DNA from: Octopus vulgaris
Lineage: Eukaryota
Reading direction: 5' to 3'
DNA: 64,000 bases
NCBI GenBank assembly: GCA_951406725.2
Contig: OX597826.1
Coordinates: forward strand, 42,532,001 to 42,596,000
Every line of letters starts with the position of its first letter. Position 1 is the first letter of the stretch. The notes under the pieces were generated by a model. That model did not search any database, had not been told where the DNA came from, and saw nothing but the letters and a program-made list of their open reading frames with translations. Below are positions 2,378-50,807 of this stretch, one piece after another. The position numbers and the translations under genes were made by a program.

Positions 2378-2603
2378 GCGAGCTGGCAGAAACGTTAGCA
2401 CGCCGGGCAAAATGCTTAGCGGTATTTCGTCTGCGTTACGTTGTGAGTTCGAATTCCGCCGAGGTCGACTTTGCCTTTCATCCTTTCGGGATCGATAAAT
2501 TAAGTACCAGTTACGCACTGGGGTCGATGTAATCGACTTAATACCAATGTCTGTCCTTGTTTGTCCCCTCTGTGTTTAGCCCCTTGTGGGTAATAAAGAA
2601 ATA
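2378..2603 (+). mobile_element. tRNA-derived SINE (family B, Meta-like core) with Tx1-like 3' tail and 19-bp TSD
   Basis: gcgagctggcagaaacgttagc...gagttcgaattcc (B box)...gcctttcatcctttcgggatcgataaattaagtaccag...tgtcccctctgtgtttagccccttgtgggtaataaagaaata; TSD ggtatctatttactgacag at 2359-2377 and 2604-2622. Confidence 0.9.
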
Positions 2604-2751
2604 GGTATCTATTTACTGACAGATATACTGAGTCATATATTTTTTCAGAGTCAGAGCAAAGCTGATGACTGAATACAAACCTTTGAATTCTCTCCCTCAT
2701 AACACCGTCGACTGCAAACCTCATTTTTATATACAGTTATCATTCCATCTA

Positions 2752-3165
2752 AGGCAGCGAGCTCGCAGAATCGTTAGTGCCTTCGGACAAAAAGCTTAGC
2801 AATATTTCTTTCCACTAATGGCCGTCGCTAAGGGGGTACACTAGACGGCACTGCCTCCTCATTATTCAATGGTGCACCCTCAGATTTACAGTGATAGATT
2901 TATTTCGAAACTTTCATTTTAGCATTATTATAAAATAGTACCCACCAAGAATATTTTGGAGTACCCCCAGGCACCAAAGTCTGGCAATGGGCCTGTTTCC
3001 ACTCTTTACGTTCTGAGTTCTAATCCCGCTGGGGTCAACTTTGCCTTTCATCCTTTCGGTGTCGATTTAATAAAGAACCAGGTAATTACTGCTGGTCAAT
3101 GATATCGATTGTCTCATGCTCTCAAAATTTCTGACCTTTACTCAAATTTAGAAAGAATAATTGTT
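2752..3165 (+). mobile_element. Family B SINE with a different tail, interrupted by a MITE
   Basis: Head ggcagcgagctcgcagaatcgttag; core ttgcctttcatcctttcggtgtcgat resumes after 3003; ends ttagaaagaataattgttat. Confidence 0.8.
2817..2995. mobile_element. MITE with 8-bp TSD (hAT-like)
   Basis: TSD tttccact at 2809-2816 and 2996-3003; imperfect TIRs (aatggccgtcgc / gcaatgggcctg); splits the SINE cleanly. Confidence 0.75.
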
Positions 3166-3528
3166 ATGCCATCCCAATTAAATCAGTCGGTTAATCCTGC
3201 CCCACAGACTGTATATTCTTATAAATATACAAGATCTAGTTTCTTGAAAAGATTGTCTAGGTTGTAGCATTTGATCAGTTACGTCCTAGTTTAATGGCAA
3301 ATCCTTAAATAAGTTTATAAGTGCATGATACAGAAAATTACTAAAGAGGTGGATAAAATACCGTTATGGAATTTGCTTTTAACCTCAGTCTATTATTTCA
3401 TTCGAAGTAATAGATGATATTCACCCAACAAAATGCAACTTTGTACTAACAGAATAAAGCATATTTTTTCACAATTACCTTGTAAAAAGTCACCAATGTG
3501 GAAAGTCTACAATGTAAAATGTAAGCCG

Positions 3529-4427
3529 TGTAGTGAGTCACCAATTTAGTGTGAGCGGTCACTAATTCAAAGTATGAAAGTACTCGTGAAAAAGTTCATT
3601 AAATGCGCTTTTGAGAAGCGGATAACTGCTTCGGTATTAATATGCGCCCAGTCCTGATTGGCTGAAGTAAAATAAAGAAATATAGCTTTCTTGACTCCTA
3701 CAACCTTTTCAGGTGACTGGGTGACGTTCACTGGGATAAAGCAGGGCAAATAAGAAGAGTTGGGGAAAGAATGAAAGTTGTAATGCAGAGGTAAGCTTTC
3801 CCTTCTCTCTATTTCGGACCAATTCCTTCTTTCTCTCTCAGCACATACACACAAGGGACACACACCCTCACACACACACAGTGTTTCTCACTCATCTCTG
3901 GGCAAACCTATACAATTTTTGACATCTGAATGGTTGCACGTATCTAGATGCTCTCATTAGCGATAGGGTGAAATATCAACTTCTCTCGAACATGTCTGTC
4001 TGTCAGGTGAGGGTGCGTGCGCGCGCGTATTTATGTGTTGAAACACTGTCAATAAACGCTGCTATGGCTCAGTGGTTAGAGCGTTGAGCTTACGATCGTG
4101 AAGTTGTGAGTTCGAATCCCGGACCGGGCTGCGTGCTGTGTTCTTGAGCAAGACATTTTATTTCATGTTGCTCCAGTTCACTCAGATGTAGAAATGAGTT
4201 GCGACGTTACTAATGCCAAGCTGTATCGGCGTTTGTCTTTCCCTTGGATAACATCGGTGGCATGGAAAGGAGGGGCCGGTATGCATGGGCGACTGCTGGT
4301 CTTCCATAAACCACCTTGCCCAGACTTATGCCTGGGAGGGTAACTTTCTATGTGCAATCCCACGGTCACTCATGACCGAAGCGGGTCTCAATATCCGTGT
4401 GTGTGCAATGACAATGGGCTCACTACG
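3529..4427 (+). mobile_element. Probable solo LTR containing a SINE insertion
   Basis: Inverted termini tgtagtgag ... ctcactacg (terminal CA appears mutated to CG); internal reverse CCAAT (gattgg) and AATAAA at 4051; no matching TSD found. Confidence 0.45.
4061..4390 (+). mobile_element. tRNA-derived SINE (family C)
   Basis: A box tggctcagtgg and B box gttcgaatcc, then tgtgttcttgagcaagacattttatttc..gctccagttcactcag, shared with 57331-57570. Confidence 0.85.
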
Positions 4428-5397: not shown

Positions 5398-5400
<3 letters not shown>

Positions 5401-10607: not shown

Positions 10608-10925
10608 AGGCGTAGGAGTTAGCCCCGGGCCGACCAATGCCTTGTGAGTGGATTTGGTAGACGGAAACTGAAAGAAGCCTGTCGTATATATGTATATATA
10701 TATATATGTATGTATGTGTGTGTTTGTGTGTCTGCTGTGTTTGTCCCCCTAGCATTGCTTGACAACCGATGCTGGTGTATTTACGTCCCCGTAACTTAGC
10801 GGTTCGGCAAAAAGAGACCGATAGATTATAGTACTGGGCTTACAAAAGAATAAGTCCCGGGTCGAGTTGCTCGACTAAAGGCAGTGCTCATATATAGTCA
10901 AAATGACTGAAACAAGTAAAGAAAG
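10608..10925 (+). mobile_element. SINE family A, internally deleted
   Basis: ggcgtaggagt..gccgaccaatgccttgtgagtggatttggtagacggaaactgaaagaagc...aaatgactgaaacaagtaaa. Confidence 0.85.
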
Positions 10926-10935
10926 AAAGAAAGAA

Positions 10936-10996
<61 letters not shown>

Positions 10997-11041
10997 TATA
11001 CATACATATATATATATATACATATATATACATATATATAC

Positions 11042-11072
<31 letters not shown>

Positions 11073-11139
11073 CATATGTATATATACATATATATATATG
11101 TATATATATATATGTATATATATATGTATATATATATAT

Positions 11140-11173: not shown

Positions 11174-13433
11174 CATATATGGGTACAGGACGTCACCAAC
11201 TGTAAACAACATGAAATACGCAAACGAGAGAAAAAATTGAAAAGAGGACAAGTAACACAAAGAACGACCCTTCATCAGTTGTCGGCTGTCTATATGTGTG
11301 TGGGGGTGTGGGGGTGTGGGGGTGTATGTATATACATCATTGTTAAATTATTTTAAAATAATTTTTCTCAATTTCTTTAAGTTGTTACTAAACAAATAGC
11401 ATTCTTGACAAGAGCAAAGGAAAAACAATCTCTGTCACGCGAAAAGTTACTATTGATGTTGTACAGCATATGAAACTTTGTGATAACAGATAGCACACAC
11501 TGAACTGTCAATATCTGCTAGTAATATAACTGCCATCAGTTCGGGGCATCTGGGAGATGTCTGCAGTGCTCACAGTAATGAAATGAGTCAACGTAAACAA
11601 GCTAGGTTGATAACAAAACTAGAAAGAAATGTTGGCAACCTACGCCACGGAATCTACGTCAACACGAAACATAAAATGAATAACAAGTTCATAGCACACC
11701 AACGATATTTTATGAAGATTCTGCTCGCTAATCCCTTGAGAGAAAATTAGTAACGTTAAAAACACCAATTTAAAAAGCTAAGTGAAAATTTTCGTTATAT
11801 AATTTTATATAATTTTCACTATCAATGAGGCTAATATTTTTAAAAAATACAAATTTGTTTCTAATCTACAAACTGTTTACCGTATAAATGGAAAATGCAT
11901 CTTTGTAAAAATATTTTCTCCTCTGGAAGATTGTAAATAATTTTGGTCTAAAATCTAATCAGAAAGCATCTCGGCTACATACAACCAAGAACGAATAGTC
12001 TACCAATATCAGCGGTAAAACTTACATAATCAAATTTAAAACCTCCACCAAAAACTGTGGTTATGTGCTAAGGTTAAAAACAACAAAAGACACCGATGTA
12101 ATACATAATTTCTGAGTAGATAATCCAAAAATCTATGTTCAAAATATTTATAATATTGAGAAACATTGATTTAGTTACAACATTTTCAGTTAAGACAGAA
12201 ACTGAAATTACCCAAAATTAATTTTCTTTTGATGTCTTAACGCAGAAAAAAACCTTCCAAACCTTAAACCTTCACATCAATGATTTCTTCGTCTCCTTTC
12301 ACACAACGAGAATTACAAATATCTAGGTGCAGAGTAAAATGCATCGTACAAAAATGACCAATGAATATATCAGATTTAAAGCATGGTTGTCGGAGCTTTA
12401 CTCATATAACAATGTCCTACAATGCATGTTTGACGAGTCTCCAGAGAAACTCCACTCCATTAATATTAAAACTTGTAAGCTCCAGATATCTACTGCAAGC
12501 TCCCACAGAAACTGTGATGTTCCTGAGACAAAAAAAGGGAGGTGGGAGAAGCTTAAGATGAGTCAGATAGCCTTTAAGTGCCATGTGGTATCCATCACTC
12601 AAACAGCAACAGCCACATTACAGTATCAAAAGTAAATGCATTAACCATATGCTCAAAAGTAAAGAAAACAACATCCTACAGGACGATAATATGCTCCTCA
12701 AGAAGAACTCACATCTCTGATGGCCTTCCATATAACCCCAGAATTTTTGGACTAGTATTCCTGAACAATTGCCTGGAAAAGAAATGCTTTGCATGCCAAA
12801 AGAAAAGGCATGCATGGGTGAGTCTCCCGTAAACTTAAGAATGATACTGACAAGAGGAAATGTAGCCTCTTATGCCCTCGTGACCGTTTGGATTCGGCTT
12901 TTGCAATCCAAGAGTAGAAGATAACTACAAAATACCGAATGGACAAAAAAGTTAGCAAATCCCTTAAAGTCTTTAGATGCACTGAAATACCGATTACGTC
13001 GCATTCCTCAATAAAATATTATACAAGGGATTAGCAATTTCCCAATAACTACCTTCCAAGCGACATTATATGTTACTAAAACAATATACAATGTCATCCC
13101 TAAGACAGACGAACCAGATACAAATGCAGAGTGTGTTTCTGTTATTTATTACATACAAACTTATCAACGCAAGAAATGTTGTTTGACGTTCCCATTAAAA
13201 CTTCTACCATGTGCGGCTGATAGAGTGGTTTGAGAGAGAAAAAGATAATTATGTACTGCCAGCGAGACCAGTTACCTCACCTGTGTGAATATTTGTTTCA
13301 AAATCAGTGAGAAAGTGAATATTTACAGGAAGCTGCTTCGAATCTTACGGCATCTCAAATTCATATTTGTACCAATAAATCACATTTATCCCAGAAATTA
13401 TTGGTGCATCTTTCGGGATTATGTTACTAAATA

Positions 13434-13821
13434 GGCAGAGGAGTGGCTGTGTGGTAAGTAGCTTGCTTACCAACCACATGGATCCGGGTTCAGCCCACTG
13501 CGTGGCACCTTGGGCAAATGTATTCTACTCTAGCCGCCTCGGGCCGACCAAAGCCTTGTGAGTGGATTTGGTAGAGGGAAACTGAAAGAAGCTTGTCGTA
13601 TATATGTATATACGCCATGTTGAATCGCTAGCTTCTGCATGCATTTTTTTCTCTCCTTGTTTCTCTCCGTGTTTCTTTTCTGAGTATCTTTCTGTCGAAG
13701 AGCGTAGGCTCGAAACGTAAAAGACTTGTTTTATTTATATTCCTGAGCACCATACTAATACAATTGTTTGTTTGTACTCCACCTGCCTTCGTCTTTTGTT
13801 TATTTTCATAAAGCTTCCCGT

Positions 13822-13907
<86 letters not shown>

Positions 13908-14110
13908 TGTGTTTGTCCCCCCAACATCGCTTGACAACCGATGCTGGTATATTTACGTCCCCGTAACTTAACGGTTCGGCAAATGAGACCGACAGAATAA
14001 GTACTGGGCTTACAGAGAATAAGTCCCGGGGTCGATTTACTCGACTAAAAGGCGGTGCTCCAGCATGGCCACATTCAAATGGCTGAAACAAGTAAAAGAG
14101 TAAAAGAGTA
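13434..14110 (+). mobile_element. SINE family A (CORE-like) with a Penelope-like unit inserted in its internal TA/TG tract
   Basis: ggagtggctgtgtggtaagtagc...ggttcagcc...ccttgggcaa...; tail aagtaaaagagtaaaagag. Confidence 0.9.
13687..13724 (+). ncRNA. Minimal hammerhead-like motif (A6U variant)
   Basis: tcttt-CTGTCGA-a-gagc-gtag-gctc-GAAA-CG-TA-aaaga. Confidence 0.55.
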
Positions 14111-14344
14111 AATACATAAATAGCAATTTCTTGGGTTTTCAAACAAGGTGACCAACTAGCACACACTTTATAAATACAGTCTGTAAACACAAACTGGTTT
14201 GTATCCTCCGAATTCGATCGATTAATGTAAAAATTCAAAACATTGTACGTTTCCTGGAATAAATATATGCGCTCGATCCCGAGTGCGAACGACATGCATA
14301 TATGCGTACATACATACAAGAGAATACCTACAAAGTTGACCATA

Positions 14345-15584: not shown

Positions 15585-16465
<881 letters not shown>

Positions 16466-16469
16466 ACAG

Positions 16470-16815
16470 TTTCCGCCGAGGTTCACTTCACTTTTCAACC
16501 TTTCGGAGGTCGATAAAATAAGTACCAGTTGACTACTAAGGTCGATGTAATCGACTTACCTCTCCCCGAAATTGCTGCGCCTGTGCCAAAATTTGAACCA
16601 ATAAATTCTTTTCTAGACTAGAAACAAGGCCCGAAATTTGGGAGGAGCCGGCCAGTCGATTAGATCGACCCCAGTGCGCAACCGGCACTTAATTTATTGA
16701 CCCCGAAAGGATGAAAGGCAAAGTCGACCTCGGCGGAATGTGAACTCAGAACGTAAAGACAGACAAAATATCGCTAAGCGCTTCACCTGGCGTGCAAATG
16801 ATTCAGCCAGCTCGC
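16470..16815. mobile_element. Two family B SINEs tail-to-tail (+ 16470-16602; - 16605-16815)
   Basis: Meta-like core is present on both strands. Confidence 0.8.
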
Positions 16816-17790: not shown

Positions 17791-18490
17791 TAGTTATTTG
17801 GAAATATTGAAAAAAATGTGTATTAATGCAATGCGTAAATTAATTACAGCAATATGTATATATTGAACTAGAATAGACGTTCTTCAAGATGTTGTATGAA
17901 GTGTAAATAAGCAATTATGATTTGTAAAATAATTATAACTGATACAGGGTGTCGCGGGTCAGTGTGGTGTGGAAGTTTGGTTTCATTTTTTAATAATTTT
18001 AAGCATTCAAAGTATGAGCTCATTGTACTGGGACAAACTTATGAATTACGTTGTGGAAGGTAAAATTTATGTACTATCCATCGTAAAATTTGAACTTGAA
18101 AAATGCAGAATTATCGGTGTTATGGGCATTCATAGTGTAATGAAATTTAATTGAAAACCCTGCATGCATTGGCAGAAATTAGTTATTTGGAGATGTTGAA
18201 AAAATTTCTATTAATGCAATGTGTAAATTAATTACAGCAATATGTATATAACTGTTTAGATATTGAATTAGCTTAGACGAAGAATAATTGATTTATTTTG
18301 TAAATATGAAACAATGAATCTGAGACTTACTTGAGATCGCCGTTGTCGCATTAGAACAGCTTCTGAAGTAGAAGCACCCATTCCTACTCGTCGTGGCATT
18401 TTAAAGTTGAACTTTATGAAGGCTAATTTATTAAAGGTAATATATGAATGTAGTATATATGTATAGAAATATGTATATATGTATATGAAT

Positions 18491-18641
18491 AGGCGCAGGA
18501 GTGGCTGTGTGGTAAGTAGCTTGCTAACCAACGACATGGTTCTGGGTTCAGATGCCACTCAGTCCCACTGAGTGGCATCTTGGGCCGACCAAAGCCTTGT
18601 GAGTGGATTTGGTAGACGGAAACTGAAAGAAGCCTGTCGTA

Positions 18642-18728
<87 letters not shown>

Positions 18729-18945
18729 GTGTGTATATGTTTGTGTGTTTGTGTTTGTCCCTCTAGCATTGCTTGACAACCGATGCTGGTGTATTTACAT
18801 CTCCGTCACTTAGCGGTTCGGCAAAAGAGACCGATAGAATAAGTACTGGGCTTACAAAGAATAAGTCCCGGGGTCGATTTGCTCGACTAAAGGCGGTGCT
18901 CCAGCATGGCCGCAGTCAAATGACTGAAACAAGTAAGAGTAAAGA
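18491..18945 (+). mobile_element. SINE family A, full length
   Basis: Same head, core and tail as the other copies. Confidence 0.9.
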
Positions 18946-19803
18946 AGAAAGTGCAATAATAACGTTCACACTCATTTGTGCTCGCTGTTAGTAACTGCGT
19001 TTAGCTTACGGAATTCTTGTTTTCATAACTATCGAAAAGCAGCCAGAAGGATAGACATATTGTTGAGAACAAATGATTTCGTTGGAGGTCTGTTGTATCC
19101 ATTCCAGCCCCTGGTGGCCTAGAAGTGGTTAGAAGGGTCAAGTGGCAATGACATTATTCTGCTTAACGGAGGCATCTGGGAAATGTATAACTGCTGTCAT
19201 TCATAGGAAAACTATTGTTTTACCCTGAGAAAAGCGCTGTTGAAGTGTTAAGTGAAATTTGGCAATCGAGGATCAAATCCACGCTATGCCTGCATGAAGC
19301 TACTACAAATACGTTGTGGGAAAAAATTATCTACTGTCATGGAAAAGTGTAACTGTAAAAAGGCAAAATTATCGGATTAATGGGTATTCAAAAAAGTATG
19401 TATGTATAGAAATGTATGAATGAAGAGATTCAAATTAAGGAAGTGCAATAATAATGTTTAGCAGTTCAAAACTGTGAGTAGTGAAATACAGAATTAGGTC
19501 GGCTGATCGTTGGTTCAAAGTAACAATGAAACGGGTTATTTCCCTTGAGTGTTTAAAAAAAGATATTGTGTAGGTGGTGTGAGTTATTTCCCTTGGGTGT
19601 TTAAAAAAATTAGTTATATAAGGTATATATAAAGGTCCCTTCCAGGGGCCGTATTATCGATTTTTTTCAGCAATCTAAGTATGTCACGAGGTTTCCATAC
19701 ATGAGTTCTACTCAGGTGTTAAGTTTCATGAAAATCAATAAAACAGTGTAGGAGTTAGCCAAAAACGCCACAAACAAGCACACACCGATTTCCCACATAT
19801 CTA

Positions 19804-21736: not shown

Positions 21737-21786
<50 letters not shown>

Positions 21787-21788
<2 letters not shown>

Positions 21789-22488
21789 AGATGTCGCACA
21801 GTATACAATATCGTGAGGTTGTTGATTGAAGATATTGTGTCAACCTAGAGTTTGTACTGTTTGTCAAGTCACAACAAGGACCTCAGACAGGCAGTACTTT
21901 ACGCAACATGCGGGCAGTTCCAAGTAATGCCAACTTTTGCAATACATTCTAGATTGTAGGGTATCTCTAAGGTTTTCAGATGGTGTTTTTTTTTTTCAGA
22001 TTTGGTGATATTGAACCCAATACTCCGATGACAATAGGGATAACCTTTATGTTCGACTCTCTTAGCTGCCACATCTTAGCGATCTCAATTCTCAGGTTTC
22101 CATATTTATCAACTTTTTTCTTTCTTTCATGATGATATGTTGATCTGGCACTACTACGTCGATTATTAGGCACTCCTGTTTCTCCCTCGTAGCGGTTACT
22201 ATATCCGGCCTTCGGTGCTCTAACACTTTGTCTGTCTGGAAATCAAAGTCCCAGAGGATTTTTGCCGTCCTCTTTTCGTCCATTACCTTTTCCGGTGTAT
22301 GTTGGTACCAAGCACTCGTAACCTCATATCCATACTTATGGCATAGTGGCCAGTGGATGTTTTGGGCTACTTTGTCGTGTCTACGCTTGTACTCTTTCTG
22401 CGAAAGACTTTCACAAGCACTAACAATGTGAGTCACACTTTCGACCCTCATCCCACAACATTCCGCAGAGGTACGATGCACCTGTGTG
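21787..22488 (-). pseudogene. 5'-truncated RLE non-LTR retrotransposon (R4/Dong-like) in (TAA)n
   Basis: C..C...ESVTHIVSAC...YKRRHDKVA...ILWDFDFQTD..HRRPDIV..IIDV..VDKY..VIPIVIGVLG..LQKLALLGTARMLRKVL*: CCHC finger plus RLE domain; (TAA)n on both sides. Confidence 0.9.
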
Positions 22489-22535
<47 letters not shown>

Positions 22536-22536: not shown

Positions 22537-22740
22537 AGGCGGTGAGCTGGAAAAAATCGTTAGCACGCTGGACGAAATGCTTAGCGGTATTTCGCTCGTC
22601 GCTATATTCTGAGTTCAAATTCTGTTGAAGTCGACTTGCCTTTTATCCTTTCGGGGTCGATAAAATAAGTACCGGCTGAGTACTTGCGTCGATGTAATCG
22701 ACTATCCCCCTTTCAAGCCTTATGACTATAGTAGAAAGGA

Positions 22741-22742
<2 letters not shown>
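22537..22742 (+). mobile_element. Family B SINE with (ATT)n tail
   Basis: Head and core as at 2378 but tail gccttatgactatagtagaaaggatcattattatt. Confidence 0.85.
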
Positions 22743-22787
<45 letters not shown>

Positions 22788-29210: not shown

Positions 29211-29234
29211 TTGTCTATATAATTATATATATAT

Positions 29235-29612: not shown

Positions 29613-29626
29613 CGATGCCCTGTACA

Positions 29627-29706
<80 letters not shown>

Positions 29707-33168: not shown

Positions 33169-33169
33169 A

Positions 33170-33581
33170 GGCGCAGGAGTGGCTGTGTGGTAAGTAGCTT
33201 GCTTACCAACCACATGGTTCTGGGTTCAGTCCCACTGCCTGGCACCTTGGGCAAGTGTCTTCTACTATAGCCTTGGCCCGACCAAAGCCTTGTGAGTAGA
33301 TTTGGTAGACGAAACTGAAAGAAGCCCGTCGTATATATGTATATATATGTATGTATGTGTGTGTATATGTTTGTGTGTCTGTGTTTGCCCCCCTCCCAAC
33401 ATCGCTTGACAACCGATGCTGGTGTGTTTACGTCCTCGTAACTTAACGGTTCAGCAAAAGAGACCGATAGAATAAGTACTAGGCTTACAAAGAATAAGTC
33501 CTGGGGTCGATTTGCTCGACTAAAGGCGTTGCTCCAGCATGGCCGCAATCAAATGACTGAAACAAGTAAAAGAGTAAAAGA
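33170..33581 (+). mobile_element. SINE family A, full length
   Basis: Complete head, core and (GTAAAAGA)n tail. Confidence 0.92.
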
Positions 33582-33637
33582 GCAAGGTTTCCGTTTGCAT
33601 CCCCGCCATGTGAGTCATATATATATATATATATGTG

Positions 33638-33678
<41 letters not shown>

Positions 33679-33700
33679 CAATGATAAATCTCGGAGCGAG

Positions 33701-33754
<54 letters not shown>

Positions 33755-33849
33755 TAATGTCTCGATGTTTGCATTGATGGATGAATGTATGTATGCATGT
33801 ATTTATGGTTTCGCATACGCATACACCTAAGCATGAATACATATGCTCA

Positions 33850-35448: not shown

Positions 35449-35869
35449 AGGTGGCGAGCTGGCAGAAACGTTAGCACGCCGGGTGAAATGCTTAGCGGTA
35501 TTTCGTCTGCCGCTACGTCGTGAGTTCAAATTCCGCCGAGGTCGACATTGCCTTTCATCCTTTCGGGGTCGATAAATTAAGTACCAGTTACGCACTGGGG
35601 GGTCGATGTAATCGACTTAATACCTATGTGTGTCCTTGTTTTGTCCCCTCTGTGTTTAGACCCTTGTGGGTAATAAAGAAATAGGTATTTCGTCTGCCGT
35701 TACGTTCTGAGTTCAAATTCCGCCGAGGTCGACTTTGCCTTTCATCCTTTCGGGGTCGATAAATTAAGTACCAGTTACGTACTGGGGTCGATGTAATCGA
35801 CTTAATACCTATGTCTGTCCTTGTTTGTCCCCTCTGTGTTTAGCCCCTTGTGGGTAGTAAAGAAATATA
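35449..35869 (+). mobile_element. Family B SINE containing a second copy (nested or tandem 3' portion)
   Basis: Outer TSD ggtattttgaattt at 35432 and 35870; inner repeat begins ggtatttcgtctgccg at 35497 and 35684. Confidence 0.85.
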
Positions 35870-39501: not shown

Positions 39502-39673
39502 GGAAGTGTAAACAAAATGTACAATGAACTTGAGAAAGGATATAGCAGAACAGAATCTAGGACATTCATCTTTTATCCTTGTGACAAGGAGATGTGAGTC
39601 AAGTTAGATATTAACTATAACAATTTGTTTACCTTTTATGGGTTTTTTAAATAATTGTTTATGGTATTGTTTA

Positions 39674-40083
39674 GGCGTAGGAGTGGCTGTGTGGTAAGTA
39701 GCTTGTTTACCAACTACATGGTTCCGGGTTCAGTCCCAATGCGTGGCACCTTGGGCAAGTGTCTTCTACTATAGCCTCGGGCCGACCAAAGCCTTGTGAG
39801 TGGATTTGGTAGACGGAAACTGAAAGAAGCCCGTCGTATATATGTATATATATATATATGCGTGTGTGTGTTTGTGTGTCTGTGTTTGTCCCCCTAGCAT
39901 TGCTTGACAACTGATGCTGGTGTGTTTATATCCCCGTTACTTAGCGGTTCGGCAAAAAAAGACCGATAGAATAAGTACTGGGCTTACAAAAGAATAAGTC
40001 CCGGGGTCGATTTGCTCGATTAAAGGCGGTGCTCCAGCATGGCCGCAGTCAAATGACTGAAACAAGTAAAAGAGTAAAAGAGT
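39674..40083 (+). mobile_element. SINE family A, full length
   Basis: As 33170-33581. Confidence 0.92.
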
Positions 40084-40284
40084 ATATAATATTGTTATAT
40101 TATATTCATAGTATATCATGTAATATTATAATATAAATGAATTATTGGATTGTCAATAGTATCTCTCTATTTAATTTATCTTTGTAATTTGCATTATACC
40201 CATACTTATATGGTATTCAAATGACGTACCAGTGAATTGGATATTTAACACACCCCTTTGAAGGATCCTTTTCCTCAGTTCGTT

Positions 40285-40838: not shown

Positions 40839-41104
40839 AATAATAGTTAAATAAATAAACAAATAGAGTTAAACAATATTTATTTAAAAAATAAATAAAA
40901 TAATAATTTTTCTTATAGAAAAAACTCTATTCACTAAATTTGAAACTTAAAACATTAGGATTATCTCCTACAACACATTTATTATGTTAAATATTTAATA
41001 TTTAAGGTAAAAAAAAAAAGAGTAAATAGATAGAAATATGTATTTATCTGTGAAGATATAATTTAGCTTTAAAAACATTAATAAACTTACTGGTAATAGA
41101 AGAA

Positions 41105-42282
41105 TTGGTGACGCGCATCCTCGATGATAGTGATGCTGTTGACATCGTTTTATTGGACTTTGCCAAAACTTTTGACTCGGTAAACCACCGCCTATTACTT
41201 CAAGCATATAGTTTCCATCCGGATATTGTACGATGGGTTGCTGCCTTCCTCTCAGATCGCTCCTTCCAAGTCCAAGTTAATGGTTCGCGGTCCGACGTCT
41301 CCAGTGCGAGCAGTGGCGTGCCTCAAGGTTCAGTGCTTGGGCCTTTATTGTTCTTAGTCTTCATAAATGACTTGCCCGACGACCTCACGCAACACACCCT
41401 TCTATTTGCCGACGATGTCAAATTGGTCGCTCCTCGCGGTGATATAGAGGATTTTCGTCGATGCCTCCACCAAATTTGGAGGTGGTCTAACGAATGGGAC
41501 CTGTGTCTGAACGTGTCAAAGTGCTGTCATCTGCCTGTTGGCTCTCCTCCTGCAACTCAACTTGATTTCGAGCCGGGTCGTCTGCTGCTGGAGAGGACCG
41601 ATCAGGTAAAGGACCTGGGTATCTTGGTGGATTCCTCCATTTCGCCTTCGGCCCAGTGCGTCCATGCTGCCAACAAAGCACGCGGAATTCTGTTCTTGAT
41701 TCGACGGTCATTCGGAATGCTCACAGAAGCTATATTCCTACCGCTCTATGTCACGCTGGTGAGACCCATATTGGAGTACGGGATTCAAGCCTCTTCTCCT
41801 TATCTCCTCAAAGACATACAGCATCTCGAAAGAGTCCAGAAGCTGGCTACCCGCACGGTTCATGGTCTCAAGAATTTGTCTTTTGAAGAAAGGCTGAAGA
41901 CGCTCGACCTTTATTCTCTAGAAAAACGCCGCCGCCGTGGTGATCTCATTCTCGCTCACAACATCATAAGCGGAAAGTGTAACCCTCGAAAGAGCTGTTC
42001 TTCACTCCTGCTCCAGAGCGTCGGCTGCGGGGTCATTCCGAAAAGCTCTATCTGCGACGATTTCATCTCAATCGAAGGAGAGGGGCTTTCTCCGTCCGGG
42101 TTGCGGATCTGTGGAACCAGACGAGATGGTGAAGATGCCGACGACCGCTTTGTTCAAAGTCTCCCTTGACCACAAGTGGCCTGAACTCTTTACATGAACA
42201 CCACCCTGTACATAACTCCATGTCCCCCTACATGGCCTTGCTTTTTGCTTTTTGAGCCAAAAAATTAACTAAGTAACTAACA
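41105..42282 (+). pseudogene. 5'-truncated CR1-group LINE (reverse transcriptase and C-terminus)
   Basis: LDFAKTFDSVNH, SGVPQGSVLGPLLFLVFINDL, LFADDVKL, KDLGILVD, LERVQKLATR, LEKRRRRGDLI; frameshift near 41985; (TAAC)-like tail. Confidence 0.92.
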
Positions 42283-43485: not shown

Positions 43486-46400
43486 CAAGGATTTCTGGTA
43501 ACTATCCAGATACCCCGTCCAAAGGTTCGCCTAAACAGGTTGGTCAACTGACTTCCATCGACGCCCAGAGTCTCTCCCAAGACGTCGTCTGACATAAACT
43601 CTACCAGCCCGCTAAAGAAATCCGCTGTGGGACTCCTGTTGCCAGTATTGCCCACCAGAGGGAGCAGCTTGAGTGCCTGTCGACACTCTAACTGCCACTC
43701 GCCCTACCTAGGTCTACGCTTGATCCATGGACCAATATTCCGTAGGGATATCAATTGAGGAAAGAAAAACCTCACGTACGGTGACCACACCTGCTCACCA
43801 CCCAAGTAAAGCCAGAGGTGCCTAAGTCTTAGCGCGAATTTGCGCATCCTCAGCCACGGTATCCCTAGCCCACACTTTATCGGTTTTTGGCAGCAGACAG
43901 AGCGCCTTACCAGAGGTCCTCTTCCCTTCCACAAAAAGTGGAATAGGAGTCGTTCCAGCTTCTTCTTCCACAAATCGGGGCAAGGTACGACAGTCAGGCG
44001 GTAGGTGATAAAGGATACTATAAACACCCGTGCCACCTCCGCCCTTCTTGTCAGGGATAACGCCCTTCCAGACCAGATCCGGGTTAGGGCAATCACTCAA
44101 CCTGTAACCTCGCTCCAATTCTCTATCTGGAGGTCTGGACCGAACCCGACCCCTAGCATCTTAATCGGACCTTCCTTTCAACGTCCCACGACGTTATTGG
44201 GCGGCATCGATTTGTCCCTCCAGGTGCCGAGTTGCAAACCGACTGACTTGTCCTGATTAATTACTGCTCCTACCACCGCTTCGTATCCTTTGATGGCGTT
44301 TTCTACACTAGATAGCTGCCCTTCATCGGATACGATGATGGTGATGTCATCCGCGTACGCAGTAGCTGTTCTTCCGCCCTATAGATCATGCGAAACACCC
44401 CCTACCGCTTCCACCCTTCGCAGTAATGGCTCATGAGCCAGTACATACAAAAGTGGAGACAGGGGACATTCCTGGCGAACTGAGCTCTCAATATTGAACG
44501 GTTTCTTCTCGAAACCGTTCACCCGGACGACAGATGGTATGTTGCTGTACAAAGCAGCGATCCAGCCACGGAAAGTCGGGCCTAGCCCGGCCGCCTCGAG
44601 AACCGCCGCCAGATACCATGGTCGACCCTATCAAATGCTTTAGACTGGTCTAAATGCACCAGTGCCCCACCTTTGTCACAGATTTTACCCACCCTCTCTA
44701 AGGAGTAGCGTATGAGGTGGAGATTGTCGTGTATCGACCTACCTGGGATAGCGCAAGCTTGCACTTCACCAACAAGGTTTGCGCTTTTCCGACCCGCGCT
44801 AACCTCTTTGCTAGCTCATTGGCCAAAATCTTTAACTCTGTATTTAGCAGCGTTATGGGCCTAAAGTTATTTATGATAACCTCCTTGCTTGGGTCCTTTC
44901 TTATCAGCGTCACCCACCCCCGACTTGCAGCTTTAACTAATTCTCCTATTCTGCTGCCAGTTGGCATAGATGCTGACCAGTAGGTGCCCGAACAAGTCTG
45001 GCATGCTTTTATAAAACTCATAGGGAAAACATCAAGTCCCGGCAATTTGTCCCCGAGAGCAACTCGACAACCTCCGCAGCCGTGATCGGTCCTTCACAGC
45101 TCTCAGCCTCTCGTGCCAAGAGTCGCGGCCCACCAGCCAGGAAGTCTCGAAGGGCCTTACCATGTTCCAGCGCATCACCCCTCCCGAACAACTCATCAAA
45201 GTGCTTGTAAAAAACCTGACACATCCATTCTTGTCCTTCAGTCGAACGCCCATCTTCCTCAACCAAAGACCTAATCGTAGTATCATTTCCACGCAAGGTT
45301 TCTACCGAGCGTGCCCATCCGGCAACATTGATTTCTTCGCGGCCCAATGCATGAACTTTAGCCTAAACTCTGCACCCTTCATGTCTGGCATTGAGTTCTA
45401 AGGCCAAAATTTGGGAAGCAGAGCCCAATCTCAACGCCTCTTCTAATGCCTTAACTAAGTTCCCTTCTACTCTGGCCCTATCTAAACTTAGCTCCTGACT
45501 AAATCTGATAGTCTCAAATCAGATGGCTCTTTTAAGGGCAAACCACCACCTGTTATTTAACACGGCGCCAGTTAATGCCCTCATCACTAACTCCTTAATC
45601 CGGCTACGGTATGTCGCGCAAGCCAAAATAGATTTGTTAAGCTTCCAATTGCCGGATCCCTTTCTATATGCTTTATCTATGTGCATCCTATATGTCACTA
45701 ATTTGTGATCCGTGTAGGAGACCTGAAGAAATTATGGACAACTAAAACTAGCCTTATCTTTAATTCGCACCACTATCCTATCTATGTAAGACTTGAACGC
45801 CCCGTCGCCACTCATCCAGGTCCACACTGGAACGCTCGGGTGATCGAGTCTATGACGATCTGCCAGCTGAAAGCTCTAAAGCAGATCGGTGAAGCGTGAG
45901 TTAACACTCCTACCAGTCGAGCCACCGTTATCCAGACGTGCATCCCGGATAGCGTTGTAGTCTCCTAACACAACTAATCTTGGACGTCACGAGAAAACCC
46001 TCGAGGCACCGATAGAAATCAACCTGTTTACTTTCTACACCAGGTGCATAAAATCCGACCAACCTGAAAGCTTTATTGTTGTATGTTAAGTCAAGGACGA
46101 CCAGCACACCTTCAGGATCTATCAGGTCATCCCATAAATTCTGTCCGAATTTTTAATAAAGAAAACAAGTGATCAAATGTTATATTTAATTGAAATTTAA
46201 TCATCAATGTACTTTCCCTGATTATCTATGACTTCCTTCTATCTATTTACTAGCTTTTTAATCCCTTCAATGTAAAACTCTTTTGGTTTCAAAGCGAAGA
46301 ACTCTGAAATATCAATTTCAACCTCCTCCTGACTTGCGAAAGTTATGGCCCCCAAAGGATTCTGTAAACTACGAAACAAATGGTAGTCTGATGGAGTAAG

Positions 46401-47654
46401 GTAGGAGAATAAAGTGGATGATGAATTTTTTCCCAACCAAGCTCTTCGATCTTCTGTGATGTGATCTTTGCAGTGTGGGGTCGCGCATTGTCCTGATGAA
46501 ACATCACTCGATTCAGTAAAGCGGGTCTTTTTTCTTCAAAGCTTGGTTCAAACGCTCTAATTTCTGACAGTAGACTTGAGCATTGATTGTTGCATTAGGA
46601 AGTAACAATTCAAAGTGAATTACTCCTTTTCAATCCCACCAGATAGAGAGAAGAACCTTTTTCCCATAAAGTTTCCTTCTCGGTTGTGGTTGAGCTTTTT
46701 CCCTTTTACCAAGCCACTATTTACGACGTTTAACATTTCGATAGAAGATCCATTTTTCGTCATCAGTCACAAGTCTATCCAAAATGGTTGAAATGAGTTC
46801 GCGAGAAAGGAGAGAAGAGCAGATGTCAACTCGGGATTTGTAGTTGCTTTCGGACAATTCATGAGGCACCCATTTTACAAATTTAGAAACCTTTCCAAGT
46901 TGTTGAAGATGACGTTGTATGGTTTGAACTAAGCTTTATTGCCAATTCTTCAACTGATAATGCAGAATTTTCTTCAAGTAATGCCTCAAGGAGCTTCACA
47001 TCAAACTCAACTGGACGTCCTATTCGATCTTCATCTTCAAGGCTGAAATCTCCACTTCTGAATTGTGAAAACCATCTTCTGCAAGTTCTTTCATTTAAAC
47101 ATTCTTTCCCATAATCTGAGTGTATGTTCAGAGTCGCTTCGGTTGCAGAGTTTCCTTTTTTGTACCCATAAAGCATTATGTGCCTCAAATGCTCTTTGGT
47201 TACTTCCATGTTAGAAGGGGTTTTAATGAAAGAAATTTTAATTCTATTATTCTGTAAAATAATATTTAATTAGTTTAAAAGTACACTAATGCATAAAAAT
47301 AATTTTTAATTCCGTTAGACATTCTAAAATACTATTAAATTTCATTCAGTTTTAAAAAAAGGTAAAATTGGACCGAACTTATGGGATGACCTGATATAAA
47401 GACTGTACTTGTCTGCAGAGACAAGAATTTTCGAAGCAGAACAACTATTCTCCTCGACCTCCGGTCTGTCTAGGGGACATGATTTTCTCATAGCCATTCA
47501 AGAGAGTCGGAAAAGCTTGTAGCCTGTCCAGCTTGGTCTCTGTAGCAACCATCACATCTATATCTTGTGACTTGAGGTTGTCGAGAAAGCAAGATTGCTT
47601 CCACTTCGAGCTCAGGCCACGTACATTCAAACAACAAAGTTTAAGTGAAGCCAT
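43485..47654 (-). pseudogene. LINE ORF2: AP endonuclease and reverse transcriptase, frameshifted and interrupted by a mariner
   Basis: CLNVRGL..DVMVATETKL (APE); PGLD; NFRPITLLNTELKILA; GRSIHDNLHLIR; LDQSKAFDRVDH; YADD at 44346-44357. Confidence 0.92.
46122..47394 (-). mobile_element. Complete mariner element (1273 bp) with degenerate transposase
   Basis: TIRs tcaggtcatcccataa..tccgaa / gaccgaacttatgggatgacctga; TA duplicated; ORF from 47209 MEVTKEHLRHIMLY..WVPHEL..TDDEKW..HQDNARPH..PSDYHLF. Removing it restores LINE peptide STVFI|DPEG. Confidence 0.95.
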
Positions 47655-49088
47655 TGAAAAATAAAAAGGTTCCTACCTTTTTGTCGGGGAGGTAGGGGTC
47701 GACCTTGGTCTTTCTGAGGACCCCTCTCCCGTTGGTTTTTTTTTTTTTTTTTTTTGGTGTCTTTAGTTGTTTTGGCACCCTTGCTATCCGTCGGATGTCG
47801 ATCGGATGCCTTTCTTTTAGTTGTCTAAACATAGTCTCGGCTGTTTTAGTGAATCTCATAGATAAGTCCTTATGTTCTGGGTACATCTTTGTCGTATGGT
47901 GTAATGAGATCGTGGTATGTATCTATTGATTTTTAGGATTGTATTCCACCGTTATTTTTTTGTCTTCTTCATTAGTTTTTGGGGTTGAGGAGCGGGTTTT
48001 TTTCCTTTCTGTGTATGTAGTGGATGTGAGTTTTTTGGCGAGTGAGTTGTGAGTTGGGTAGTCAGAATGCATCTTTTTGCCCTTTTTTGGGCACTCACTT
48101 CGGATTTTCTCTCCTGGTCGTCTATTTCCATGTTGTCGCCAGGAAGGAGAATTTTACCTTTGGGCGATGATGTAGGCGTCGGTGTGGGTGTCGATGCGGG
48201 GGTGGGTAACTTCTTTTTTATCCTTTTTCTCTTCCTCATTTTCTGTGGTACTGGTTTCCAAGTGGGGTTCCTCTGTGGTAGAATGGCCACATTTGGCCCT
48301 TATGTGACCCTTCTGGCCGCATTTAAGACATCGAGGTTTCTTCCCTCGACCTGTATTTAAGACATCGAGGTTTCTTCCCTCGACCTGTATCCGTAGGGCG
48401 ACGTCTTCACCTACGAGCACTCTTTCCGGCATTTCCTCTAGGTCACATTGGGTTGCTTGTATTAACACCTCCACGCTCTTCCCAAGCCAATTTTGGGGAG
48501 CAGAGCGTGTGATCTGTAAATTATTCACTTTGTCTTCCCGGTTATAACAAAGGGAAGCTATTACCCAGGCGACATCAATTTCTGGTGGCACTTCTGTAAT
48601 TTTAATCCGGGACGTCCTTCGTCCTAGATAGGTTGCCAAAAGTGTCACCTCATCTGTTTTTAACGTTAACAATGAGTGCTCGCGGGCTTTCTCTATGCTG
48701 TGAAGCCTTACCTCTAAAGAGGCGTATTTTTTTCCTCGAGTCACGTAGGAGACATATCTCCAAATGGGTCCGAGGCATTTTTCTATTTTCTCCCGTGACA
48801 TATTTTCCATTTTGCGGTTTTCTACGTCGTAACTTTTATATATAATGGTTTTGCTCATAGTTTGTTTGGTTATATCGCCTGGCGAGGGAAGATTTGGATG
48901 TCGCTCCCACTTACTTTTAACATGCCGAAGTATGACTGTAGTTCTGTGCGTGGTATTTCTAGTATTTCTGTTTTGATTTTCGTAGCTACCGCGAATCCTT
49001 TTGTTATATTTGATACTTCCATCTCTTCCTGTGGTGTAACTTTGCTCTCAAAGAGCGAAATTTTTTCCTTAATAATTTCTACCGACAT
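47641..49088 (-). pseudogene. LINE ORF1 (gag-like, CCHC zinc knuckle), frameshifted
   Basis: PRCLKCGQKGHIRAKC; basic low-complexity C-terminal region; ends overlapping the ORF2 ATG. Confidence 0.88.
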
Positions 49089-49946
49089 GATAGAAAATAA
49101 TAAAAAATTTTGTCTTTCAGAGAGAAAAGAACAATGTTTTTTTGTTTGTTTTTCTTTTTGTAGGTAATACTCCAAAATAGTTTCAAATCCTTGCCCCCTG
49201 TCGGGGGAGGAACACAGTTTTAAATTAAAACAGTTCACAAATGTATAATTCAGTGAAAAAAAATTTGCAAAAGAAAATTTTCTCTCTTCGAAGAGGCACA
49301 CGAATAAACATTTCGAATCCTTCCCCTGTCGGGGCGGAACACAGTTTAATAAAAGCAGTTCACAAGTGTATAATTCAAAAGAAAAATTTTGTCTCGTCAG
49401 AGAAACACAACAATAAACTGTTCAAATCCATTCCCCGTCAGGGGAACGAACACAATTCAATAAAAATTGTCCAAAACAAACCATAGTTCATAACTGTAGT
49501 AAATATTCCAATCTTCCACACCCCCGTAGGGAGAAGGAACACAAGTTCAAAACCAACTGTAGCCTGCTTGGCAGGCTACAGTTTAACAAGGTAAACAATT
49601 CAACAATACCTTTGAAAAGGAAAATCAACAAAACACTTCTCGTTCAAATGAAGTTGCCGCTCGTACGACACAATTTGCGTACCTTGCCGACTGTTTTTCT
49701 TTATTTGGCACACAGGCCATGACACCTCAACCGGAATCAAAAATGATTTAACACTAACAAAATTACCTCGCTGATTGTATTTCCTTTATTCAGCCCGTAG
49801 GCCATAACATAGAGGGGACAGCACAAGGACAGACGAAACACTACTGTGGGGACAAGAAACACAGAACGAACGAATGAAGGATGGATAATAACAATGAGGA
49901 TGAAATGGTTCGCCTGCTCCTCATTCGCAGGCGGTATCATTTTAAA

Positions 49947-50175
49947 GGCGGCGAGCTGGCAGAAACGTTAGCATGCCGGGCGAAATGCTTAGCCGTATTT
50001 CGTCTGCCGTTACGTTGTGAGTTCAAATTCCGCCGAGGTCGACTTTGCCTTTCATCCTTTCGGGGTCGATAAATTAAGTACCAGTTACGCACTGGGTTCG
50101 ATGTAATCGACTTAATCCGTCTGTCTGTCCTTGTTTGTCTTCTGTGTTTAGCCCCTTGTGGGTAGTAAAGAAATA
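49947..50175 (+). mobile_element. Family B SINE (Tx1-like tail)
   Basis: TSD ggtatcattttaa (49933) / agtatcatttaa (50176). Confidence 0.9.
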
Positions 50176-50576
50176 AGTATCATTTAACTGTTTTTCGTTT
50201 AACGCTTATAAATCAGTTCTTTTTTCCTTTTTGCATCTGTTTTTACAGTTATTTAAAATTTTTAACTATTTACTTACTGTTTTTTTTTTACTATTTCATG
50301 TACGACAACAGGTCGACGTACTCTACTACTGGCGGCAAGTCGTCGAACTCGACGCGTACTCCCGTTGGGTCCATCGTCTTTCCGAACTGTTCTCGTAGTT
50401 TTTCACATCTCTCGTCGTCAATAACTATTGCTTTGATACTCTCTTGATAGTATTCCGTCGTTAGTCTCTCTCTTATTACTGATTTCATTTTTGTGATTTT
50501 CTTCTCTATCTCTGTACTTTTCGAATATGTTACTATACGCCATTTATGTTTTGGCTCTTTTTATTTATTTGTTTCT

Positions 50577-50807
50577 TATTTCTTTATTGCCCACAAGGGG
50601 CTAAACATAGAGGGGACAAACAAGGTCAGACAAACAGATTAAGTCAATTATATCGACCCCAGTGCGTAACTGGTACTTATTTAATCGACCCCGAAAGGAT
50701 GAAAGGCAAAGTCGCCCTCGGCGGAATTTGAACTCAGAATGTAGCGGCAGACGAAATACTGCTAAGCATTTCGCCCGGCGTGCTAACGTTTCTGCCAGCT
50801 CGCCGCC
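50577..50807 (-). mobile_element. Family B SINE (Tx1-like tail)
   Basis: TSD ttatttatttgtttct at 50561 and 50808. Confidence 0.9.

What the first reader, a model, noticed from the sequence alone, without database searches (positions are those of the whole stretch)
2545..50640. Shared 3' tail links a SINE subfamily, the ORF1-only element and a Tx1 LINE
Seen: SINE tail gtctgtccttgtttgtcccctctgtgtttagccccttgtgggtAATAAAgaaata (2549-2603, 35.6k, 35.8k, 50.1k, 50.6k). ORF1-only tail gtctgtccttgtgctgtcccctctatgttatggcctacgggctgAATAAAggaaata (49834->49778). Tx1 tail ttgtattgtcccctctgtatttggccctgcatggctAATAAA (15865->15823). All have TGTCCCCTCT followed by a short gcc/ggc hairpin before AATAAA. Established: SINEs copy the 3' end of their partner LINE, though L1-group partners are usually relaxed (poly-A-dependent). 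Inference: a stringent Tx1 recognition signal exploited by two parasite types, i.e. a three-member system.
Basis: partly seen in the sequence, partly recalled or inferred. Interest (0 to 1): 0.72.

Follow-up and report, generated by a model that had tools for sequence, protein, structure and literature searches.

The report
Octopus Tx1 tail shared by parasites
In what is likely an octopus genome, a very common short jumping sequence (SINE), a multi-copy element with only one of the two usual genes, and a Tx1 retrotransposon all end in the same 40-57 letters with no poly(A) tail, which likely lets the first two borrow the Tx1 copying enzyme and would be a rare animal case of sequence-specific tail recognition in the L1 group.

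Summary
The SINE tail matches the 3' end of a Tx1 ORF2 fragment (E1; 34/42) and of an ORF1-only element (E2; 43/57), each beyond 1000 shuffles, and nothing else in the window matches. E2 is truly ORF1-only: no ORF2 remnant, and paralogous contigs in four organisms run from the ORF1 stop straight into the 3'UTR. Its tail type is multi-copy, so it is not a private SINE remnant. The four SINE loci have 9-18 bp target duplications and no poly(A). A 4-bp stem with a 6-nt loop abuts AATAAA with compensatory changes among the LINE-type ends, but it is weak and the SINE breaks one pair. E1's tail could not be checked in other copies, and the SINE is closer to E2 than to E1, so the exact donor Tx1 family is unseen. 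Best reading (0.6): a Tx1-derived 3' signal used by two non-autonomous riders. Stringent recognition is inferred, not shown; a 3'-processing module (0.2) or SINE-to-LINE capture (0.12) remain. No Tx1/SINE shared tail turned up in the papers searched; Repbase and Dfam could not be searched.

The parts
2378..2603 (+). SINE, tail type A; tail 2549-2603; 18-bp TSD beginning GGTAT; no poly(A)
35449..35869 (+). SINE type A plus a second, 5'-truncated copy starting at the internal GGTATTT; tails 35628-35683 and 35813-35867; one 14-bp TSD around both
49945..50175 (+). SINE type A inserted antisense in the E2 3'UTR; tail 50122-50175 has a 2-nt deletion in the motif; 9-bp TSD
50577..50809 (-). SINE type A inserted in E2 ORF1; tail 50632->50577; 16-bp TSD
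15823..16479 (-). E1: 3' fragment of a Tx1-type LINE; ORF2 C-terminus 16479->16082 with a frameshift near 16240, stop 16081-16079, 256-nt 3'UTR; 5' side cut by other SINE copies
   Evidence: 71% and 59% identity to P0101 aa 980-1111
15823..15864 (-). E1 shared tail (motif, hairpin, AATAAA), followed by (TCTA)n from 15822 downwards
49778..52361 (-). E2: ORF1-only, Tx1-derived non-autonomous element; 5' end approximate
50291..52182 (-). E2 ORF1, decayed; CCHC knuckle at 51083->51048; interrupted by a MITE-like insert and a SINE; stop TAG 50293-50291
   Evidence: 36% over 114 aa to E3 ORF1, E=3e-21; 57% to an O. bimaculoides protein
51171..51583 (.). 413-bp insert with terminal inverted repeats (MITE-like) inside E2 ORF1
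49778..49834 (-). E2 shared tail, ending AATAAAGGAAATA; no poly(A)
   Evidence: multi-copy in four runs
49695..49777 (-). U: 83-bp unit between E2 and E3; front resembles E2's 5' end, back is the same stem/loop plus AATAAA, without TGTCCCCTCT
   Evidence: (3 of 1000 shuffles)
43512..49694 (-). E3: near full-length Tx1 LINE (5'UTR, ORF1 from 49088, ORF2 from 47654 with endonuclease and RT), split by a mariner-like insert at about 47395-46123; 3' end missing, so its tail cannot be read
   Evidence: 'mariner' is my reading of the translation, not a search result

Best explanation
The SINE subfamily, the multi-copy ORF1-only element and the Tx1 fragment share a homologous 40-57 nt 3' end without poly(A), which was likely copied from a Tx1-lineage RNA and likely lets Tx1 ORF2 protein reverse-transcribe the SINE and the ORF1-only element in trans. 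Shown: homology, terminal position, absence of ORF2 in E2, several E2 paralogues, TSDs, no poly(A), and other tail types joined to the same SINE body near the same point. Inferred, step 1: E2 arose by internal deletion of ORF2 from a Tx1 LINE, keeping ORF1 and the 3'UTR. Step 2: the SINE gained this tail by a template switch onto a Tx1-type or E2-type RNA. Step 3: ORF2p binds the pyrimidine-rich motif plus the 4-bp stem/6-nt loop before AAUAAA and starts copying 6-8 nt past it, at an endonuclease nick that tends to fall at RGTAT, possibly helped by pairing with a GUAUUU RNA end. The donor is probably a sister Tx1 family, not E1 itself.
For: Homology beyond chance and within the 35-61 bp, 72-95% range used to call SINE-LINE pairs in bivalves (PMC11481361, passages). 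E1's tail lies 256 nt after a true ORF2 C-terminus of an APE+RT+zf-RVT protein whose best PDB hit is L1 ORF2 (E=1e-50 against 4e-22 for R2) and whose top Atlas cluster is 'TX1 149 kDa', 0.97. E2 has no ORF2 trace (best coding-strand tblastn E=1.6). Of 32 contig pieces shown, 10 non-self pieces cross its ORF1 stop into the UTR with 31+ letters each side (3, 3, 3, 1 in X1, X5, X7, X15; about 85-90% identical; at least 3 distinct loci). In each run 8-14 contigs carry E2-type tail letters at 49792/49795 that give a full U-G, G-C, G-C, C-G stem in E1's register. Pair count in that register: covariation 0.42, 0 of 500 shuffles, slid controls at most 0.20, two pairs changed on both sides. Only 3 of 147 AATAAA sites in the window have this stem, and they are E1, E2 and U (0.49 expected; post hoc rule). 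4 of 4 SINE loci have 9-18 bp TSDs starting 6-8 nt after the signal with no poly(A); 3 of 4 begin RGTAT (p about 1e-4 at fixed register, post hoc). Tail-to-internal-GTATTT joints recur in 9-33 contigs per listed row in X1 and X5, 4-22 in X7, 0-1 in X15.
Against: E1's tail is seen in one copy only; no other E1-family 3' end could be fetched. No listed contig bridges E2's ORF1 to its tail across the SINE site (only the longest 32 of about 711,600 pieces were shown); the link rests on the window copy and on similar depth on both sides. Hairpins are no more stable than shuffles (z -0.52 to -0.67; the SINE's 61-nt centroid is unfolded). All 5 SINE copies break pair 6-17 in the LINE register, and the shifted register that pairs the SINE is not significant (56 of 500). 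The structure was drawn from these same sequences and only three LINE-type rows are independent. Tail divergence SINE-to-LINE (19-25%) far exceeds SINE-to-SINE divergence (4-9%), which strict recognition by E1's own family would not easily tolerate. E1 ends in (TCTA)n, the SINE and E2 in GAAATA. RGTAT is not seen at the E2 or E1 junctions, and no TSD was found for E2. No activity, age profile or RT tree was obtained.
Confidence: 0.6

Rival explanations
1. The shared tail is Tx1-derived but works as a 3'-end processing module (pyrimidine-rich upstream element plus AAUAAA) that fixes where the RNA ends; ORF2p recognition is relaxed and the tail is not an RT binding site.
For: AATAAA is the most conserved block; the hairpin is weak and partly broken in the SINE. 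Mammalian T+ SINEs use AATAAA plus a Pol III terminator such as TATTT (PMC8466645, abstract only), and the SINE junction often reads GGTATTT. Upstream polypyrimidine signals in such SINEs are recalled, not read.
Against: No poly(A) at 4 of 4 SINE loci or at E2. AGTAAA stands in 2 of 5 window tails and in a 498-contig loose-end consensus in X7. Compensatory stem changes among LINE-type ends are not expected of a plain poly(A) signal.
Confidence: 0.2
2. The direction was reversed: an old SINE 3' piece was fixed in the 3'UTR of an ancestral Tx1 master and inherited by E1 and E2; the SINE need not depend on Tx1.
For: Other tail types of the same SINE also hold a GGCCTTGT-like hairpin start (loose ends at 50112 and 50114; window copies), so a hairpin with this loop may be native to the SINE. 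E1's tail is unverified in other copies.
Against: Homology stops at the tail boundary, with no SINE body in E1 or E2. The other tail types do not align significantly to E1, E2 or U (38 or more of 300 shuffles). The SINE body carries several alternative tails from about the same point, the usual pattern of LINE-donated tails (PMC4824008, passages).
Confidence: 0.12
3. The real partner is another LINE clade (CR1, RTE or R4/Dong) with a similar 3' end, and the Tx1 likeness is secondary.
For: The CR1-like RT fragment at 41054-42270 ends with TGTCCCCT and GGCCTTG nearby. RTE, Dong-R4 and CR1 are all active in O. vulgaris (PMC13282606, part 1 of the text).
Against: That 3' end does not align significantly to the SINE tail, E2 or E1 (31, 196 and 390 of 1000 shuffles; the SINE hit is to the body). 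The Dong-like end at 21.8k is different. Long TSDs are unusual for CR1/L2 (recalled).
Confidence: 0.05
4. Chance likeness of GT/CT-rich sequence, or private decayed SINE remnants in these two copies.
For: A GT-rich internal stretch of another SINE gives a weak hit (18/21, E=0.42).
Against: 0 of 1000 shuffles for both; both hits fall exactly at element 3' termini in sense orientation; E2's tail type is multi-copy in four organisms.
Confidence: 0.03

Closest known systems
Maize/sorghum ZmSINE2, ZmSINE3 with LINE1-1_ZM; Chlamydomonas SINEX-3_CR with L1-1_CR (PMC3472496 passages; PMC3747384 passages and Table 1)
   Same: L1-group LINE and tRNA-type SINE share a short 3' end with a predicted hairpin and compensatory stem changes; read as stringent recognition.
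   Different: Those are the only three L1-clade pairs among 58 listed, all in plants or algae; the LINEs end in poly(A). Here the host is an animal, the LINE is Tx1-type, there is no poly(A), and an ORF1-only element shares the tail.
SINEU and Tx1-Mar of crocodilians (PMC4494074, passages)
   Same: A SINE inferred to be moved by a Tx1 LINE, with target preference and tandem insertions.
   Different: SINEU has an snRNA head and a poly(A) tail, and no LINE sharing the SINEU-1 3' terminus was found; the link rested on shared targets. Here the link is a shared tail.
HAL1, HeT-A and Ag-Sponge, ORF1-present non-autonomous LINEs (PMC5786205, passages)
   Same: E2 keeps ORF1 and a 3'UTR, lacks ORF2 and is multi-copy.
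   Different: HAL1 derives from the L1 clade, HeT-A from Jockey and Ag-Sponge from CR1; E2 has a Tx1-type CCHC ORF1, no poly(A), and shares its tail with a SINE.
Stringent L2 pairs: ZfL2-1/ZfL2-2, UnaL2/UnaSINE (PMC4176376 passages; Table 1 of PMC3747384)
   Same: Short 3' stem-loop with exchangeable stem and specific loop as the ORF2p binding site; the working model here.
   Different: Shown by assay for the L2 clade; nothing comparable was found for Tx1, and the loops here vary (CUGCAU, CUACGU, CUUGU).
Mollusc HCD SINEs with swapped LINE tails; octopus OK/OR1/OR2 (PMC11481361, PMC4824008, PMC4758252, PMC5804259; passages)
   Same: One SINE body carrying several LINE-type tails.
   Different: Partners named in the passages seen are CR1, CR1-Zenon, L2, Nimb and I; the word Tx1 does not occur in PMC11481361 or PMC4824008. 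Which named octopus SINE this is could not be tested.

Membership tests
Tx1 clade (E1, E3) | ORF2 with APE endonuclease, RT and C-terminal zinc finger, L1-group | tested here: met
   E3 aligns to P0101/P0105 over APE and RT, E1 over the C-terminus; Pfam PF03372, PF00078, PF13966; best PDB hit L1 ORF2
Tx1 clade (E1, E3) | ORF1 with CCHC zinc knuckle | tested here: met
   Motif in E3 and E2 ORF1; Atlas zf-CCHC and ZCCHC3-like clusters 0.90-0.93; Pfam itself gave no zf-CCHC hit on the decayed ORF1
Tx1 clade (E1, E3) | RT phylogeny places it in Tx1 rather than L1 | not tested
   No named reference Tx1 sequences in hand; only the Atlas name 'TX1 149 kDa', 0.97, for proxy P0101
Tx1 clade (E1, E3) | Target-sequence preference (common, not universal) | tested here: inconclusive
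   E1 abuts (TCTA)n, 5' junction lost; E2-U-E3 lie head to tail; SINE TSDs start RGTAT in 3 of 4
HAL1-like ORF1-only non-autonomous LINE (E2) | ORF1 present, ORF2 absent, 3'UTR retained | tested here: met
   271-nt UTR once the SINE is subtracted
HAL1-like ORF1-only non-autonomous LINE (E2) | Amplified as a family in that form | tested here: met
   10 non-self pieces of 32 shown cross the ORF1 stop into the UTR, at least 3 loci, four organisms; linkage to the tail on one contig not shown
HAL1 proper | Derived from the L1 clade, with poly(A) tail and TSD (the last two recalled) | tested here: not met
   Tx1-type ORF1, no poly(A), no TSD found: works like HAL1, not filed as HAL1
Stringent-type SINE/LINE pair | Homology between the SINE 3' tail and the LINE 3'UTR end | tested here: met
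   34/42 and 43/57, 0 of 1000 shuffles
Stringent-type SINE/LINE pair | Tail present in the consensus of the autonomous LINE | not testable with these tools
Stringent-type SINE/LINE pair | Conserved stem-loop with compensatory changes | tested here: inconclusive
   Covariation among E1, E2, U and in E2 paralogues, but weak folding and one broken pair in the SINE
Stringent-type SINE/LINE pair | Concurrent activity, and tail needed for transposition | not testable with these tools
   Needs a genome-wide age profile and a cell assay
tRNA-derived SINE | Short, high copy, TSD-flanked, non-coding | tested here: met
   About 230 bp; 165,304-515,193 contigs laid per run, depth concentrated on the SINE; TSDs
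tRNA-derived SINE | tRNA head with A and B boxes; named superfamily (CORE, Meta/MESC; OR1/OR2) | tested here: inconclusive
   Box-like sequences by eye only; ARAGORN 0, Rfam 0; motif searches in three papers' supplements found nothing and one file each of two papers was not searchable; SINEBase supplements not available
SINEU | U1/U2 head and poly(A) tail | tested here: not met
   No Rfam hit, no poly(A)

The most novel reading that the evidence does not exclude
Octopod Tx1 LINEs are a stringent, poly(A)-independent branch of the L1 group: ORF2p reads a pyrimidine motif plus a 4-bp/6-nt hairpin, and this one signal is exploited by a major SINE subfamily, an ORF1-only family and perhaps an 83-bp head-plus-tail mini-element (U), with the elements stacking head to tail at each other's 5' start. 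This would be the animal case needed to test whether stringent recognition is ancestral in the L1 group.
Probability: 0.35. Interest if true: 0.78.

Novelty: new variant of a known kind. Interest (0 to 1): 0.57.

Why it matters
Whether L1-group LINEs began with strict tail recognition and relaxed to poly(A) recognition is an open question argued so far from three plant and algal pairs (PMC3472496). A Tx1 lineage in an animal with a conserved, poly(A)-free tail shared by a SINE and an ORF1-only element would give a directly testable animal example next to the structurally solved human L1 ORF2p. It would also name a likely driver for part of the octopus SINE expansion (SINEs 11.6% of the O. vulgaris assembly, 13 recently active L1-Tx1 families; PMC13282606), for which the papers seen name no partner.

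Tried and rejected
Own genome: not held. Tail or SINE patterns in viral contigs and metagenome contigs: 0 hits; in GTDB genomes one bacterial hit, L001, taken as chance and not examined. Tx1 C-terminal alignment A4 in metagenome and viral contigs: no confirmed relative. Protein search with E1's last 99 aa: nothing; the HMMER search found the relatives (2 of the 9 proteins scanned, P0039 and P0056, were unrelated bacterial surface proteins and were dropped). Sequencing runs: no RNA holder listed. In one search the SINE swamped the joint and loose-end tables (15 of 1348 joints and 24 of 2128 loose ends shown), so no statement on E2 termini or on the SINE-free join could be drawn; summed depths are not copy numbers. 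Rejected: my first reading that the 49.8k tail lies upstream of its ORF1 and that the element has ORF2 (that is E3). Rejected: CR1-like 3' end at 42.2k as donor; other SINE tail types as homologues of E1/E2; a TSD for E2. Literature searches without a report of a Tx1/SINE shared tail or an octopus ORF1-only element. PMC4795812 (octopus genome paper) is not held; Ohshima and Okada 1994 and Bao and Jurka 2010 were seen only as citations. PMC8967140 and PMC11203168 (passages) added nothing. Unseen supplements of PMC4824008, PMC4758252 and PMC3531059, and Repbase/Dfam, may already name this SINE and its partner.

Full report
Setting. The window is repeat-rich animal DNA. Protein relatives with names come from Octopus bimaculoides and Argonauta hians, so the host is inferred to be an octopod. 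No genome was available, so evidence from outside the window comes from protein searches and one laying of public contigs from four coded organisms.

Observation. TGTCCCCTCT occurs exactly six times, all in these tails; the 50.1k SINE copy has lost two bases of it, and two of five SINE tails read AGTAAA. From the motif to AATAAA the three types align without gaps over 36 nt: 29/36 for E1 and 25/36 for E2 against the SINE, while the best match in 300 shuffled windows was 24/36. Whole-SINE versus 3'UTR local alignments gave 34/42 and 43/57, neither reached in 1000 shuffles. BLASTN finds no other non-family match better than E=0.42 in the window.

What the three elements are. E1 (16479->15823) is the last 130 codons of an ORF2, 71% and 59% identical on either side of a frameshift to P0101, then a stop, a 256-nt 3'UTR, the tail and (TCTA)n. 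P0101 has APE, RT and zf-RVT domains, hits human L1 ORF2 best among solved structures and resembles the 'TX1 149 kDa' cluster at 0.97. Tx1 membership is therefore well supported by likeness but not by a tree. E2 (about 52361->49778) has a decayed Tx1-type ORF1 with a CCHC knuckle, 36% identical to E3's ORF1, broken by a MITE-like insert and a SINE; after the stop come 271 nt of UTR (once a second SINE is subtracted) and the tail. Permissive tblastn finds no ORF2 remnant on the coding strand. I first took the tail to precede the ORF1 at 49088; that ORF1 belongs to E3, a separate near full-length Tx1 (49694->43512) whose 3' end is lost. The SINE is about 230 bp, its type-A copies are 91-96% identical, and the same body carries at least two other tails in the window and in all four runs.

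Is the tail part of the families? For E2, yes as far as tested. Of the 32 longest pieces listed, ten non-self pieces cross the ORF1 stop into the UTR with 31 or more letters on each side (3 in X1, 3 in X5, 3 in X7, 1 in X15). I set aside record 5 (the locus itself), record 21 (a likely orthologue) and records 15 and 32 (under 31 letters on one side). Several are probably the same loci seen in different organisms, so the count is at least three paralogous loci at about 85-90% identity. Depth is similar on the two sides of the inserted SINE (498/605/76/91 against 745/590/80/86). Within the tail, 8-14 contigs per run carry other letters at 49792 and 49795, and 30-57 at 49835-49845, so more elements share the last 80 nt or so than share the rest. 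SINE tail contigs themselves fit on E2's tail with a one-base gap at 49821. No listed piece joins ORF1 to the tail across the SINE site, because the SINE swamped the tables. For E1 the test could not be run: scans of the three contig collections found no octopus DNA.

Hairpin. Anchored on AATAAA, E1, E2 and a fourth unit U all form a 4-bp stem with a 6-nt loop in one register, with G-U, U-G and U-A at the outer pair and C-G against G-C at the third (covariation 0.42, 0 of 500 shuffles, slid controls at most 0.20). The majority letters of E2 paralogues restore a G-C pair and give the loop CUACGU (by depth at least 71% of X1 must carry both letters). Only these 3 of 147 AATAAA sites fit the rule, 0.49 expected. 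Against this: I drew the rule from these sequences, only three rows are independent, folding energies are no better than shuffles, and all five SINE copies break the second pair; their alternative register with a 5-nt loop is not significant. The hairpin is a candidate, not a result.

Insertion signature. All four SINE loci have TSDs (18, 14, 9, 16 bp) starting 6-8 nt after the hexamer with no poly(A), and three begin RGTAT. Junctions from the SINE 3' end to its own internal GTATTT are frequent in X1, X5 and X7 and nearly absent in X15, as in the window's 35.4-35.9k dimer. This fits an APE-type LINE with a site preference or with 3' pairing between RNA end and target; it does not by itself name Tx1, and the motif is not seen at E1 or E2 junctions.

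Mechanism. Most likely (0.6) the tail is a Tx1 3' signal, kept by an internally deleted ORF1-only derivative and picked up by the SINE through a template switch, so that both are copied in trans by Tx1 ORF2p without poly(A). The model for recognition is the stem-general, loop-specific binding shown for ZfL2 (PMC4176376, passages). The SINE matches E2 over a longer stretch, including the terminal GAAATA, than it matches E1, and differs from both by 19-25%; the immediate donor is probably a Tx1 family not present in this window. Rivals: a 3'-processing module with relaxed RT (0.2), capture of a SINE end by an ancestral Tx1 (0.12), a partner from another clade (0.05), chance or private remnants (0.03).

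Known and new. Shared SINE/LINE tails are textbook, ORF1-only LINE derivatives are known (PMC5786205), and a Tx1-moved SINE is known from crocodilians, but with poly(A) and, for SINEU-1, no LINE found to share its 3' end (PMC4494074). In Ohshima's list of 58 pairs only three involve the L1 clade, all in plants or algae (PMC3472496, PMC3747384). Eight searches found no Tx1/SINE tail pair and no octopus ORF1-only element; I read passages, abstracts or tables, not whole papers, and part 1 of 3 of PMC13282606. Repbase, Dfam and several supplements could not be seen, so prior annotation is possible. Verdict: a real feature and a new variant of a known kind; interest 0.57, up to 0.78 if stringent recognition by Tx1 is confirmed.

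Noticed in passing
window 49695-49777 (-): 83-bp unit U between E2 and E3: front like E2's 5' end (3 of 1000 shuffles), back the same hairpin plus AATAAA. Both E2's tail and U's tail are followed by an ACAGTC-like start (variant at 49775 in 3-7 contigs per run). Could be a head-plus-tail mini-element, head-to-tail self-targeting, or part of E3's 5'UTR.
   Followed up: partly
window 43512-49694 (-): E3, a near full-length Tx1 LINE directly downstream of E2, split by one mariner-like insert and cut off by another; short internal duplication in ORF1 near 48380-48320.
   Followed up: partly
window 35449-35869 (+): SINE followed by a second copy starting exactly at the internal GGTATTT, inside one TSD; the same junction is common in public contigs.
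   Followed up: partly
window 16471-16620 (+), 16606-16815 (-), 22537-22770 (+), 3003-3165 (+): Same SINE body with two other tail types, one ending in (ATT)n; their LINE partners are unknown. The type-A share of depth is about 23% in X1, X5, X7 but about 6% in X15 (depth is not copy number).
   Followed up: partly
window 51171-51583: 413-bp insert with terminal inverted repeats (MITE-like) in E2 ORF1.
   Followed up: no
window 41054-42270 (+): CR1/L2-like RT fragment (Pfam RVT_1; clade from recall) whose 3' end has TGTCCCCT and a GGC...GCC pair before an A run; not significantly like the shared tail.
   Followed up: partly
window 21786-22510 (-): R4/Dong-like C-terminal fragment (clade from recall) ending in (TAA)n, back to back with a type-B SINE.
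   Followed up: no
window 10620-11076, 13419-14122, 18440-18961, 29216-29673, 33169-33756, 39659-40135, 54428-54873, 62301-62795: A second, about 410-bp abundant repeat with an internal (TA)/(TG) tract followed by TGTGTTTGTCCCC, weakly like the type-A tail (E=0.42).
   Followed up: partly
window 57730-59730 (-): Long AAC/AGC-rich tandem array open for 666 codons; probably a minisatellite.
   Followed up: no
proteins P0002, P0099-P0102: An intact-looking 1111-aa Tx1 ORF2 close to E1 comes from JGI/IMG contigs; its DNA was not in the searchable collection but would show a related family's 3' end.
   Followed up: partly
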